The notes beneath the pieces are model-generated. The model saw only the letters and a program-made list of their open reading frames with translations, did not search any database and had not been told where the DNA came from. From a virus (lineage: Duplodnaviria; Heunggongvirae; Uroviricota; Caudoviricetes), in IMG/VR virus record IMGVR_UViG_2526164690_000035, positions 1-18,588 of that record: a stretch of DNA of 18,588 nucleotides, one strand, 5' to 3'. Each line of letters begins with the position of its first letter. Within the stretch, counting starts at the first letter, position 1. Shown here in pieces: positions 1 through 18,588 of this stretch. Both the position numbers and the translations under genes were made by a program.

Positions 1-227
1 CCAACGTTAAGCTGTTGAGTCGTTTTAAGTGTAATTCGGGGCAGAATTGGTAAAGAGAGTCGTGTAAAATATCGAGTTCGCACATCTTGTTGTCTGATTA
101 TTGATTTTTCGCGAAACCATTTGATCATATGACAAGATGTGTATCCACCTTAACTTAATGATTTTTACCAAAATCATTAGGGGATTCATCAGTGTTGAGT
201 GGCCAGTCGCCCCGCAATAAAAGGATA

Positions 228-5232: not shown

Positions 5233-5400
5233 CATCCTCCACGCCCCGAAGGGCGTGGATTCCTGCTACGTTCAGGCTGTCGCCTGAATCATTTCGGTGG
5301 GTTCCTGCTTCAACGGGCGGCCTGACTGCACCATCCCTCCACAGGCAAGTACGGCGTGCCCCGCCGCTAAAATGTTACGAGCGCCGTTTACATCGGCGTT
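5233..5400 (-). ncRNA. Putative TnpB omega RNA (right-end element RNA) scaffold
   Basis: Inference from established TnpB biology: the guide RNA derives from the 3' end of tnpB plus the right end, and a right-end hairpin is present at 5239-5258. Extent is not determinable from sequence alone. Confidence 0.25.
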
Positions 5401-6480
5401 CGCTGTATATCCACATACCTGGCATCTGAATTTACTTTGTGACAGGCGATTTTCTTTCGCTGTATGACCACAGCACGCGCAACGCTGGCTTGTGTACGCT
5501 GGCGGAACAGCAAGCACCTGACCGCCACGCCAGAGCTGCTTGTACTCAAGCTGGCGGCGCATTTCATACCAGCCCTGATCCAGTATCGAACGGTTTAAAC
5601 CTGATTTTGCCCGGACATTGCGACCCGGATGACTTATCGTTCCCGCCGCTGACTTTGACATGTATTTAACCTTCAAATCCTCAATGACAATCATTGCGTG
5701 GTTTTTGCTGACGGTCGTTGTGACTTTGTGAAGGTAGTCCCTGCGGATATTTGCGATACGGGAATGCAGTCGCTGTATTTTGCGTTTCTGCTTCTGCCAG
5801 TTGTTGCTGAATTTGACCTTGCGGCTTAACTGTCGCTGAAGTCTCGCCAGCTTCTTCTGGTTTTTCTGAAAACTATTTACAGGTTCAAAGACTGTGCCAT
5901 CTGACAGCGTGGCGAGTTTAGCCACGCCAGCATCCAGTCCGACCATTGATGCTGAAGGGTGAACAGGAGTGGATACCTCTCTTTCTGTCTGAATACTGAT
6001 GTACCACTTACCGCAGGACTGGCTGACAGTAACATTTTTCACAATACCCGTGACCTGACGGCTATTCCGGTAGCGCATCCAGCCAAGTTTCGGCAGAAAA
6101 ATACGGCTGTTTTCCTGATCGAGCTTAACACCCTGCGGGTAGCGGAATGCATCATTCTGTCCCCGCTTTTTGAATCGGGGAAAAGCTGCCCGATTCTGGA
6201 AGAAGTTTTTGTAAGCCCGCTCAAGGTCTTTCAGTGACTGTTGCAATGGCTGTGAGGGAGAATCTTTAAGCCATTCGGTTTCAGTGTCTTTTTTCCACTC
6301 AACCAACCAGGAAGCCATTTTCGTGTAAGGGATGTATTTTTTACCGGCCTCATGATTCTCATTCTGAAGCGCCAGAGCACGGTTGAAAACGAAACGACAA
6401 GCTCCGGCAAAGCGCCTCATTTGACGCTCCTGTTGACCATCTGGTTTTAACCGGAATTTGAATGACACCTGTTGTTTCAT
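5272..6480 (-). CDS. tnpB: TnpB (OrfB) RNA-guided nuclease of the IS200/IS605 family
   Basis: 402-aa ORF with a RuvC-like core and C-terminal zinc-finger pattern (SQRCACCGH ... [20 protein letters not shown]) characteristic of TnpB/OrfB proteins. Confidence 0.9.
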
Positions 6481-6579
6481 GTCACTATTTTAAGCAAAAA
6501 TAGCCGGGAGGAAAACTGTGCCTTATATCCCCACTATGAGGAGCGTAGGGGGCGGCACATTGGATAAGGCGTAACAGGG

Positions 6580-17583: not shown

Positions 17584-18057
17584 TTAAATCAAGTCATCTC
17601 TTAGATTTTTAGCTACAACCATATAAAATGTTGCATATTTCATAATAATATCATCAAATTCTTTGTCTAAAACACTTCCAAGTTTCCCGTCTATAAATTT
17701 CCTCATAACGTTATTCATTCCATGTGTTTTAGCAAATATATTTTTTCCGTCTATTAAATTATCATCCTCAACAGGAGAATAAGATACACTCCATCCACAT
17801 TTGATTAAGTTTTTTGCCGATTTTGTGGAAATATCAAGAAGTATGGTTGCATCAATATTAATGATTTTACAGAATTTCATCATATTCTCTACAGAGAGAG
17901 AGGACTTACCATTTTCAATTTTTCCCCAGCCGGCACTTGTTATCCCAAGGCCAGATGCAATGTCTGATTGAGTAACACCATGCTTCTCGCGAAAATCGCG
18001 AATATGGAAAGCCAATATAGTTAAATAGGATGTTTTCATATGGGTAATGATACTCAC
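17584..18057 (-). CDS. HTH XRE-family (Cro/C1-type) DNA-binding protein with a roughly 70-aa C-terminal extension
   Basis: N-terminal helix-turn-helix KHGVTQSDIASGLGITSAGWGKIENGKSSLSVENMMKFCKIINIDATILL. Track ORF starts at the GTG at 18057; the ATG at 18037-18039 (MKTSYL...) is the more likely start (151 aa). C-terminal region not recognised. Confidence 0.75.
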   Translation of the reverse strand: MSIITHMKTSYLTILAFHIRDFREKHGVTQSDIASGLGITSAGWGKIENGKSSLSVENMMKFCKIINIDATILLDISTKSAKNLIKCGWSVSYSPVEDDNLIDGKNIFAKTHGMNNVMRKFIDGKLGSVLDKEFDDIIMKYATFYMVVAKNLRDDLI

Positions 18058-18186: not shown

Positions 18187-18519
18187 TTATTCAGCCGCCA
18201 CCGGTTTTAACAAGCCAGCATCGAGCAGTTTACGCGTCAACCACTGCTGGCCTTTACCCGTTAATTGAGGCGTCAACCGTATCTGGTAGCCATCTTCATC
18301 ATCCAGCACCACTTCTTTCACCGTGAAATACCCCGCGTTGATGTACTGCTGGAACGGCACATTTTTACGTCCACCGGACGCTATCAGGATGCCGTTCTCC
18401 CGTAACCAGACAAACAGCGCGTTTTGCTTAAGTCCAACAACCTTTGCAAAATTCCCAATCAGGATCCCTTTAGCTACTGATACCCGGTCGGCAAAATCGA
18501 CTTTAGGAGCGGCGGCCAC
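18187..18519 (-). CDS. KilAC-domain (antirepressor C-terminal domain) protein
   Basis: 110-aa ORF with GTG start. Translation (VAKGILIGNFAKVVGLKQNALFVWLRENGILIASGGRKNVPFQQYINAGYFTVKEV...TPQLTGKGQQWL) resembles the C-terminal domain of phage Ant/KilA antirepressors. Confidence 0.55.
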   Translation of the reverse strand: MAAAPKVDFADRVSVAKGILIGNFAKVVGLKQNALFVWLRENGILIASGGRKNVPFQQYINAGYFTVKEVVLDDEDGYQIRLTPQLTGKGQQWLTRKLLDAGLLKPVAAE

Positions 18520-18530
18520 CAGCTGCTGAT

Positions 18531-18588
18531 TTAGCTGGTGGCTTTCTGTTCCAGAAGTTGCTTTTGTTCAGCCAGTTCGGCAGCCAGG
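18531..18588 (-). CDS. 3' end of a minus-strand gene running off the window edge
   Basis: Open frame from the window edge ending ...LAAELAEQKQLLEQKATS then TAA (stop at 18531-18533), 12 nt upstream of the KilAC ORF start; may be the N-terminal part of a split antirepressor gene. Confidence 0.3.
   Translation of the reverse strand, partial: LAAELAEQKQLLEQKATS

What the first reader, a model, noticed from the sequence alone, without database searches (positions are those of the whole stretch)
18187..18588. Possible split or frameshifted antirepressor gene
A minus-strand frame entering from the window edge ends ...LAAELAEQKQLLEQKATS with a stop at 18531-18533, and a GTG-initiated KilAC-domain ORF begins 12 nt later in a different frame. 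Ant-type proteins normally carry an N-terminal domain fused to KilAC, so this may be one gene disrupted by a frameshift, or a genuinely two-part arrangement.
Basis: seen in the sequence. Interest (0 to 1): 0.35.

Follow-up and report, generated by a model that had tools for sequence, protein, structure and literature searches.

The report
Frameshifted P1-type antirepressor gene end
The two adjacent reading frames are the tail of one well-known phage P1-type antirepressor gene (ant) that has lost a single C in this sequence only, so it is a broken gene or a sequencing slip and not a new two-part arrangement.

Summary
On the minus strand, a frame entering from the window edge stops at 18533-18531, and a GTG at 18519 opens a 110-aa KilAC (Pfam ANT, E=1.8e-30) ORF in another frame.

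The window is part of a P1-like phage-plasmid. Relatives that are 99% identical carry one uninterrupted 370-372-codon ant gene here (ORF6N domain, coiled linker, KilAC), preceded by icd and a C4 antisense RNA. The window differs by one missing C: CCC becomes CC at 18541-18540, in codon His256 of the linker.

This allele was found nowhere else:
- no match in 5,426 complete E. coli genomes, PLSDB, IMG/VR, GTDB representative genomes or JGI metagenomes;
- the intact allele is in 352 E. coli records;
- all 100 homologous sites I fetched have CCC.

The genuine two-part reading is not supported.

Whether the deletion is in the DNA or is an assembly error cannot be decided without reads. It lies 47 nt from the window end, inside a three-copy repeat where the sequence switches paralogue. 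It also sits at the base of a hairpin that it lengthens from 9 to 10 bp, which fits slippage or quasipalindrome mutation. This is an ordinary finding of low interest.

The parts
18534..18588 (-). Visible end of the upstream ant fragment: residues L240-A255 of the intact protein, followed by two out-of-frame codons (T, S). The rest of the gene (about 716 nt, then icd and the C4 RNA in relatives) lies beyond the window edge.
   Evidence: Translation. Residue positions in the 372-aa homolog. Alignments A1 and A2.
18540..18541 (-). Frameshift site: CC where every relative has CCC, a 1-nt deletion in codon His256 (GCC CAC CAG becomes GCC ACC AGC TAA).
   Evidence: Alignment A1 and the difference list. 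All 100 sites in the fetched loci have CCC. The deletion allele has no match in any collection. The intact allele is in 352 E. coli records.
18531..18533 (-). Premature TAA stop created by the frameshift.
18515..18542 (-). Hairpin (quasipalindrome) spanning the deletion site, the premature stop and the GTG. Arms are GCCACCAGCT and AGCTGGTGGC, with loop AAATCAGC. The deletion removes a bulged C and lengthens the perfect stem from 9 to 10 bp.
   Evidence: ssDNA -9.7 to -12.0 kcal/mol; RNA -21.3 to -24.7 kcal/mol. Only 2 of 898 distinct single-nt deletions in the intact gene create a perfect stem of 10 bp or more across the junction.
18187..18519 (-). Residual 110-codon ORF, equal to residues V263-E372 of intact Ant (the KilAC domain), opened by an internal GTG that normally encodes Val263. 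It has no Shine-Dalgarno motif and its start lies inside the hairpin stem.
   Evidence: ORF; Pfam ANT, E=1.8e-30; ANT at 260-361 of the full protein; no SD-like motif in the 25 nt upstream.

Best explanation
The region is the 3' 36% of a single ant (antirepressor) gene of a P1-like phage-plasmid. In relatives the gene belongs to an extra immI-type module (C4 antisense RNA, then icd, then ant). That module sits where P1 has its res-mod genes, upstream of an HTH gene and a DUF3944 gene.

The intact protein is 370-372 aa: an N-terminal region, an ORF6N domain (residues 116-202), a coiled linker, and a KilAC domain (260-361). In this sequence one C of a CCC run in the linker (codon 256) is missing. 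The reading frame therefore ends two codons later. The KilAC part remains as an orphan ORF that happens to open at an internal GTG (Val263).

The split falls in the linker between two domains, which is why it looks like a tidy two-gene arrangement. If the deletion is real, both the Ant1-like and the Ant2-like products lose KilAC, because they share this C-terminus. The copy is then a pseudogene in a plasmid family that usually carries further ant copies. If it is not real, it is a consensus error at a contig end inside a repeat.

Shown here: the gene identity, the 1-nt deletion, its absence from all relatives examined, and the hairpin context. Inferred: loss of function, and the mutational mechanism (slippage or quasipalindrome template switching).
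For: Identity of the gene:
- KilAC Pfam hit.
- 99% identical plasmids annotate one 1119-nt 'phage antirepressor Ant' gene here, preceded by an icd-like gene.
- The full-length homolog has ORF6N plus ANT domains.
- Rfam C4 RNA lies upstream of each of the three icd-ant modules in the closest plasmid.
- The C-terminus is 90% identical in protein and 86.6% in nucleotides to P1 ant1/ant2.

The frameshift:
- One missing C in alignment A1.
- Against the closest complete plasmid, p88_0502-1, the window is 99.95% identical over 18.4 kb. Apart from ragged alignment at the IS10 junction at the far end (window 191-193), the only differences are this deletion plus 6 SNPs, all in the last 258 nt.

A private allele:
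- The 36-mer with the deletion has 0 hits in IMG/VR, GTDB representative genomes and JGI metagenomes.
- A 40-mer centred on the deletion has no match in 5,426 complete E. coli genomes or in PLSDB.
- The intact 41-mer control hits 352 records at 412 places, and the intact allele is in 70 IMG/VR stretches.
- All 100 sites in the fetched loci have CCC. Of these, 75 are full ORFs of 320-384 aa.
- 10 of 10 places adjacent to HTH and DUF3944 have Ant gene calls of 370-372 aa.

No sign of independent expression:
- No SD motif upstream of the GTG and no slippery heptamer.
- The GTG is buried in a 10-bp stem.

Literature: extra icd-ant1/2 homologs in RD-1, and an ant gene between pacB and c1, are already described for P1-like plasmids (PMC6906374). 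Ant1/Ant2 act as a C1 antirepressor held in check by c4 RNA (PMC8546580).
Against: - The upstream two thirds of the gene lie outside the window, so continuity with an intact N-terminus in this particular molecule is inferred from relatives.
- The exact 110-aa product is on record as a separate protein on 128 contigs, which at first sight suggests a free-standing gene. In the five places I read, four have an uninterrupted 371-codon ORF and one is frameshifted elsewhere.
- Stand-alone KilAC fragments can be active when over-expressed in a distant system, phi11 Gp07 (PMC5944126). Residual activity of the orphan ORF therefore cannot be excluded.
Confidence: 0.9

Rival explanations
1. The deletion is genuine: a recent, lineage-private inactivating mutation. 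It would arise by replication slippage in the CCC run or by quasipalindrome template switching at the hairpin, in a redundant ant copy under relaxed selection. This is a sub-case of the best explanation.
For: - The deletion removes the bulged C at the base of the strongest hairpin in the gene and lengthens the perfect stem from 9 to 10 bp.
- Only 2 of 898 possible distinct single-nt deletions in the gene do something comparable.
- The closest plasmid has three ant copies, and its c1-adjacent copy is already a pseudogene (Q120*).
- About 3-4 of 81 complete copies in the fetched loci are disrupted by other mutations, so copy decay does occur.
- The rest of the window has no indels against its closest relative, so the sequence is not generally indel-prone.
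Against: - The allele is seen in no other record.
- The lineage shows no other difference from p88_0502-1 across roughly 18.1 kb of unique sequence, so very little time has passed for mutations.
- The gain in the stem is only 1 bp, so a plain homopolymer event explains it equally well.
Confidence: 0.45
2. The deletion is not in the DNA. It is a consensus or assembly error at the end of a contig that runs into a multi-copy repeat. The gene is intact in the organism.
For: - The site is 47 nt from the window end.
- All 6 SNPs against the closest plasmid lie in the last 258 nt. They are exactly the variants of the paralogous c1-adjacent ant copy, while the downstream flank is that of the HTH-adjacent copy. 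The window end is therefore a paralogue hybrid joined through a 173-nt identical stretch. A real recombinant or an assembler switching between repeat copies would both look like this.
- The other window end (1-192) is the terminus of IS10, with RNA-OUT at 78-147. Both ends lie in repeats, as in a draft-assembly contig (inference).
- The error is a homopolymer under-call.
- No hypothetical truncated N-terminal product ending in EQKATS is on record among 15 billion proteins.
Against: - There are no other indels in 18.4 kb.
- A 3-nt run is short for a homopolymer error.
- The position at the hairpin base is unlikely for a randomly placed error, unless the hairpin itself causes the error.
- The sequencing platform and coverage are unknown.
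Confidence: 0.45
3. The arrangement is a genuine two-part or recoded gene. Either the ORF6N-containing fragment and the KilAC fragment are made separately (reinitiation at GTG 18519), or a -1 ribosomal frameshift in the 34-nt overlap (18534-18567) restores a full-length protein.
For: - The stop and the GTG are only 11 nt apart, a distance compatible with termination-reinitiation.
- The split falls exactly in an interdomain linker.
- An A-AAG site (CAA AAG, 18566-18561) lies in the overlap, and a stable hairpin follows.
- P1 Ant naturally works as two polypeptides, Ant1 and Ant2.
Against: - No relative has this arrangement, so nothing has been conserved or selected.
- There is no canonical X XXY YYZ heptamer and no SD motif.
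- The GTG is sequestered in the stem.
- P1 Ant2 starts at codon 84, not at the KilAC boundary.
Confidence: 0.03

Closest known systems
Phage P1 immI operon: c4 RNA - icd - ant1/ant2 (NC_005856.1 48343-49731)
   Same: The order is the same: icd then ant, with the ant ATG overlapping the icd stop, and a C4 antisense RNA upstream in the relatives. The visible KilAC part is 90% identical to the P1 Ant1 C-terminus. The Met that starts P1 Ant2 (codon 84) is conserved in the homologs.
   Different: The middle of the protein is replaced: an ORF6N domain that is not detected in the P1-like copy 2. The linker is 7 aa longer than in P1, and the deletion lies in that extra heptad. The module sits at a different locus (the res-mod position, next to HTH and DUF3944) and is an additional copy. 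In the window the gene is frameshifted.
Extra icd-ant modules of P1-like phage-plasmids (pSvP1 RD-1; ant between pacB and c1 in RCS47 and pTZ20_1P; Venturini et al. 2019, PMC6906374)
   Same: The locus and neighbours are the same. pSvP1 (NZ_MN510446.1) matches the ant-HTH junction at 98.7%. The c1-adjacent copy matches the window's last 435 nt at 99.5%.
   Different: Those copies are intact 370-372-aa genes. The window combines c1-adjacent-type SNPs with the HTH-adjacent flank, and carries the 1-nt deletion.
110-aa 'Ant2'/'phage antirepressor KilAC domain-containing protein' records (e.g. phage phi456 Orf87; EHW06751.1)
   Same: The 110-aa ORF opens at the same GTG, and the product is identical or nearly so.
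   Different: In phi456 the upstream part was removed next to an IS1. In L075, L077, L078 and L079 the DNA encodes an uninterrupted 371-codon ORF and only the recorded start is short. None has the window's frameshift.
Two-domain phage antirepressor/Bro-type proteins with C-terminal KilAC (e.g. phi11 Gp07, Bro-N + KilAC)
   Same: General architecture: an N-terminal DNA- or protein-binding module fused to KilAC.
   Different: Only the KilAC domain family is shared. No close sequence relationship was tested here.

Membership tests
P1-type Ant antirepressor (immI-type c4-icd-ant module) | C-terminal KilAC (Pfam PF03374 ANT) domain closely related to P1 Ant1/Ant2 | tested here: met
   E=1.8e-30. 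90% protein identity to the P1 Ant1 C-terminus and 86.6% nucleotide identity.
P1-type Ant antirepressor (immI-type c4-icd-ant module) | N-terminal part and KilAC encoded in one continuous ORF | tested here: not met
   The window has a 1-nt deletion and a stop at 18533-18531. The feature is met in all relatives examined. The window copy is therefore a disrupted member (pseudogene or sequencing artefact) and not an intact gene.
P1-type Ant antirepressor (immI-type c4-icd-ant module) | Preceded by icd with overlapping stop/start, and by a C4 antisense RNA with its target sites | not testable with these tools
   This region lies beyond window position 18588. In the closest relative, all three modules have icd and an Rfam C4 hit, and two have the c4-a1b1 target element.
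P1-type Ant antirepressor (immI-type c4-icd-ant module) | Product binds and inactivates the C1 repressor | not testable with these tools
   Known for P1 Ant1/Ant2 from the literature (PMC8546580).
Free-standing KilAC-only gene with an independent upstream gene | Homologs show the same upstream stop and a separately initiated KilAC ORF with its own ribosome-binding site | tested here: not met
   None of the 100 homologous sites has the stop. The deletion allele has no match in five collections. There is no SD motif upstream of the GTG. The 110-aa records inspected are remnants or short start calls.
Programmed -1 ribosomal frameshift gene | Slippery X XXY YYZ heptamer in the overlap, and conservation of the two-frame arrangement in relatives | tested here: not met
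   No heptamer in the overlap. Relatives are in a single frame.
Quasipalindrome-associated (template-switch) mutation | The mutation converts an imperfect inverted repeat into a more perfect one | tested here: inconclusive
   The perfect stem goes from 9 to 10 bp and a bulged C is removed. Only 2 of 898 possible deletions do likewise. The gain is 1 bp, and simple slippage in the CCC run gives the same product.

The most novel reading that the evidence does not exclude
The split is real and tolerated or used. In that case the ORF6N-containing 257-aa fragment and a KilAC fragment reinitiated at GTG 18519 would be made as separate polypeptides and still assemble into a working, or differently regulated, antirepressor. 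This would be a natural domain-split experiment on P1 Ant, which normally acts as an Ant1/Ant2 pair.
Probability: 0.03. Interest if true: 0.3.

Novelty: already known. Interest (0 to 1): 0.1.

Why it matters
It matters little biologically. It is one broken, or mis-sequenced, copy of a redundant and already described antirepressor gene in a P1-like plasmid.

There are two practical points.
- Annotators should treat the 110-aa KilAC ORF here as the tail of a frameshifted ant gene and not as a gene of its own. The same 110-aa model is recorded on more than 100 contigs, and in four of the five I inspected the DNA encodes the full gene.
- If the deletion is real, it is a small natural example of an indel at the base of a hairpin inside a multi-copy immunity gene family. 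The copies of that family appear to exchange sequence: some HTH-adjacent copies share a copy-1-type SNP.

Tried and rejected
1. Deletion allele elsewhere. I scanned for the exact 36-mer in IMG/VR, GTDB representative genomes and JGI metagenomes. I also ran a 40-mer centred on the deletion against complete E. coli genomes and PLSDB. All were empty, while the intact-allele controls were positive.

2. Extending the sequence beyond 18588. I looked up the exact 110-aa ORF. It returned long contigs, but all shown were c1-adjacent copies with CCC. Four of five had an open 371-codon ORF. The window's own source contig was not identified.

3. Truncated N-terminal products. I looked up seven hypothetical products ending in ...EQKATS, built from relatives. 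None is on record. This is a weak negative, because the look-up needs an exact match.

4. Programmed frameshift or reinitiation. There is no slippery heptamer and no SD motif, and the GTG lies inside a stem. Rejected as unsupported.

5. General indel-proneness of the window, which would point to a sequencing artefact. Apart from alignment raggedness at the IS10 junction, the ant deletion is the only indel in 18.4 kb against the closest plasmid. This test did not settle real versus artefact.

6. The 110-aa 'Ant2' of phage phi456 as evidence for a free-standing gene. Rejected: it is the remnant left next to an IS1.

Full report
**Observation**

On the minus strand, the frame that enters at the window edge reads LAAELAEQKQLLEQKATS and ends at TAA 18533-18531. 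The GTG at 18519-18517 lies in the -1 frame relative to it. It opens a 110-codon ORF that ends at TAA 18189-18187. That frame is closed upstream by TGA 18570-18568, so the two frames overlap by only 34 nt. The 110-aa product is a strong KilAC match (Pfam PF03374 ANT, E=1.8e-30).

**What the locus is**

The window is a piece of a P1-like phage-plasmid. The 689 nt at this end match P1-type plasmids of E. coli at 96-99% and phage P1 and P7 ant1/ant2 at about 87%.

In pUMNF18_103, p88_0502-1 and eight further complete plasmids, the same junction carries these genes in order:
- an icd-like gene;
- a 1119-nt 'phage antirepressor Ant' gene whose ATG overlaps the icd stop;
- an HTH gene (window 17584-18057);
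- a DUF3944 gene (window 16816-17568).

Rfam finds a C4 antisense RNA upstream of each of the three icd-ant modules of p88_0502-1, so these are complete immI-type modules. Venturini et al. 2019 (PMC6906374) already described extra icd-ant1/2 homologs plus a regulator at this position (RD-1, replacing res-mod). They also described an ant gene between pacB and c1.

The intact protein is 370-372 aa. It has an ORF6N domain at 116-202 and KilAC at 260-361. The linker is 7 aa longer than in P1 Ant1 (alignment A2). In P1, Ant1 and Ant2 (in-frame starts at codons 1 and 84) together antagonise the C1 repressor, and c4 RNA holds them in check (PMC8546580).

**The split**

Aligning the window to three relatives shows a single missing base. 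Relatives read AAAGCCCACCAG and the window reads AAAGCCACCAG (alignment A1). The CC is at 18541-18540.

The intact reading is ...LLEQKA-H256-QLNQQL-V263-AAAPKVDFADRV... In the window, GCC CAC CAG becomes GCC ACC AGC TAA. The upstream fragment would end as a 257-aa protein. The '110-aa ORF' is residues 263-372, opened at a GTG that normally encodes Val263. Because the break lies in the interdomain linker, it resembles a clean two-gene arrangement.

**Is the arrangement found elsewhere?**

No.
- The 36-mer with the deletion has no exact match in IMG/VR, in GTDB species-representative genomes or in JGI metagenomes.
- A 40-mer centred on the deletion cannot seed on the intact allele. It has no match in 5,426 complete E. 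coli genomes or in PLSDB.
- The intact 41-mer control hits 352 records at 412 places. The intact allele is in 70 IMG/VR stretches.
- In the 90 loci fetched, all 100 homologous sites have CCC. Of these, 75 are complete ORFs of 320-384 aa, 19 are cut by a locus end, and a few are disrupted by other mutations.
- All 10 places with the same HTH and DUF3944 neighbours have Ant gene calls of 370-372 aa.

The 'one gene disrupted by a frameshift' reading stands.

**A trap: the 110-aa protein is on record**

The exact 110-aa sequence is recorded as a protein on 128 contigs (EHW06751.1 and others). A near-identical 110-aa 'Ant2'/'KilAC domain-containing protein' is recorded on 380 contigs.

In phage phi456 this ORF is what is left of ant next to an IS1. 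In four of the five long contigs returned for the exact sequence, the DNA has CCC and an ORF open all the way to the ATG that overlaps icd. The fifth is frameshifted elsewhere. These records are remnants or short start calls, not evidence for an independent gene. Why the short model is recorded on intact genes is not explained by my data. Propagation of an early short model through evidence-guided annotation is my guess.

**Real mutation or artefact?**

Against its closest complete relative (p88_0502-1, E. coli O111:H11), the window is 99.95% identical over 18.4 kb. Every difference outside the ragged IS10 junction at the far end (window 191-193) lies in the last 258 nt: six SNPs plus the deletion. 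The six SNPs are exactly the variants of the paralogous c1-adjacent ant copy of that plasmid. From 32 nt past the stop, the flank is that of the HTH-adjacent copy. The window end is thus a paralogue hybrid joined through a 173-nt identical stretch.

This pattern has two possible origins:
- real gene conversion or recombination; some HTH-adjacent copies in other plasmids share one copy-1-type SNP;
- an assembler switching repeat copies near a contig end.

The other window end (1-192) is the terminus of IS10, with RNA-OUT at 78-147. Both ends lie in repeats, as expected of a draft contig (inference).

Points favouring an artefact:
- the allele is private;
- it is a homopolymer under- nt from the end, inside a three-copy repeat;
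- none of seven hypothetical truncated N-terminal products is on record.

Points favouring a real event:
- there are no other indels in 18.4 kb;
- the c1-adjacent copy in the closest plasmid is already a pseudogene (Q120*), so these redundant copies do decay;
- the deletion sits at the base of the strongest hairpin in the gene (18515-18542).

On the last point, the deletion removes a bulged C and lengthens the perfect stem from 9 to 10 bp. The predicted energy changes from -9.7 to -12.0 kcal/mol as ssDNA and from -21.3 to -24.7 kcal/mol as RNA. Only 2 of 898 distinct single-nt deletions in the gene create a perfect stem of 10 bp or more across their junction. That is the signature expected of slippage or quasipalindrome template switching. 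The gain is only 1 bp, so I rate that test inconclusive. I put real and artefact at roughly equal odds. Only the reads can decide.

**Function**

If the deletion is real, both the Ant1-like and the Ant2-like products lose KilAC, because they share the C-terminus. The orphan ORF has no Shine-Dalgarno motif within 25 nt, and its GTG lies in the 3' arm of the 10-bp stem. Efficient independent translation is therefore unlikely.

The overlap contains no X XXY YYZ slippery heptamer, and no relative needs recoding. Programmed frameshifting is unsupported. A stand-alone KilAC fragment is active when over-expressed in the distant phi11 Gp07 system (PMC5944126), so residual activity cannot be excluded. 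There is no evidence for it here.

**Verdict**

The region is a known gene family at a known locus: a P1-type ant gene in an extra immI-type module. It carries a private 1-nt deletion that is either a recent pseudogenising mutation or a contig-end error. It is not a new gene arrangement. Interest is low.

Noticed in passing
window 1-192 (RNA-OUT at 78-147): The left end of the window is the outside end of IS10/ISVsa5 (…GGGGATTCATCAG ends at 192), with an Rfam RNA-OUT hit. In the closest plasmid, p88_0502-1, the IS lies 4.4 kb further on, beyond the tail-fibre genes. The window's source therefore either lacks those genes (an IS-adjacent deletion) or has another IS10 copy. Both window ends lie in repeats, which suggests the window is a whole draft-assembly contig.
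   Followed up: partly
window 18331-18558 versus L074 1490-2608 and 9800-10918: The last 258 nt of the window carry all six diagnostic SNPs of the c1-adjacent ant paralogue, although the downstream flank is that of the HTH-adjacent paralogue. This is either gene conversion between immI-type modules or an assembly chimera.
   Followed up: partly
L074 (NZ_CP077568.1 58000-93000): 1130-2608, 6280-7695, 9449-10918: The closest plasmid carries three c4-icd-ant modules in addition to whatever canonical immI it has. One is next to c1 and is a pseudogene (Q120*). One is inverted, with a P1-like middle region and no ORF6N. One is next to the HTH and DUF3944 genes. Each has an Rfam C4 RNA.
   Followed up: partly
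L075, L077, L078, L079 at 9218-10333: Public gene calls record only the 110-aa KilAC ORF (10001-10333) and nothing in 9222-10000. Yet the DNA encodes an uninterrupted 371-codon ant gene. The short model is on record for 128 contigs. This looks like a propagated mis-annotation of the start.
   Followed up: partly
window 16816-18057 (minus strand): Downstream of ant lie a 157-aa HTH_3 (Cro/C1-type) protein and a 250-aa DUF3944 protein. They sit where P1 has res-mod (RD-1 of Venturini et al. 2019). Their function is unknown. The pairing of an extra antirepressor module with its own HTH regulator may be worth a look.
   Followed up: no
window 16255-16398: Only a 144-nt remnant of the 2255-aa darB-type N-6 DNA methylase gene is left between the 82-aa ORF (16492-16740) and the portal-like gene (14470-16179), as in p88_0502-1. 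Most relatives have the full gene.
   Followed up: no
window 5272-6480 and 10602-11717: The P1 backbone carries an IS200/IS605-type TnpB (InsQ) gene and an ompC/nmpC-like porin gene. These are cargo and insertions shared with p88_0502-1.
   Followed up: no
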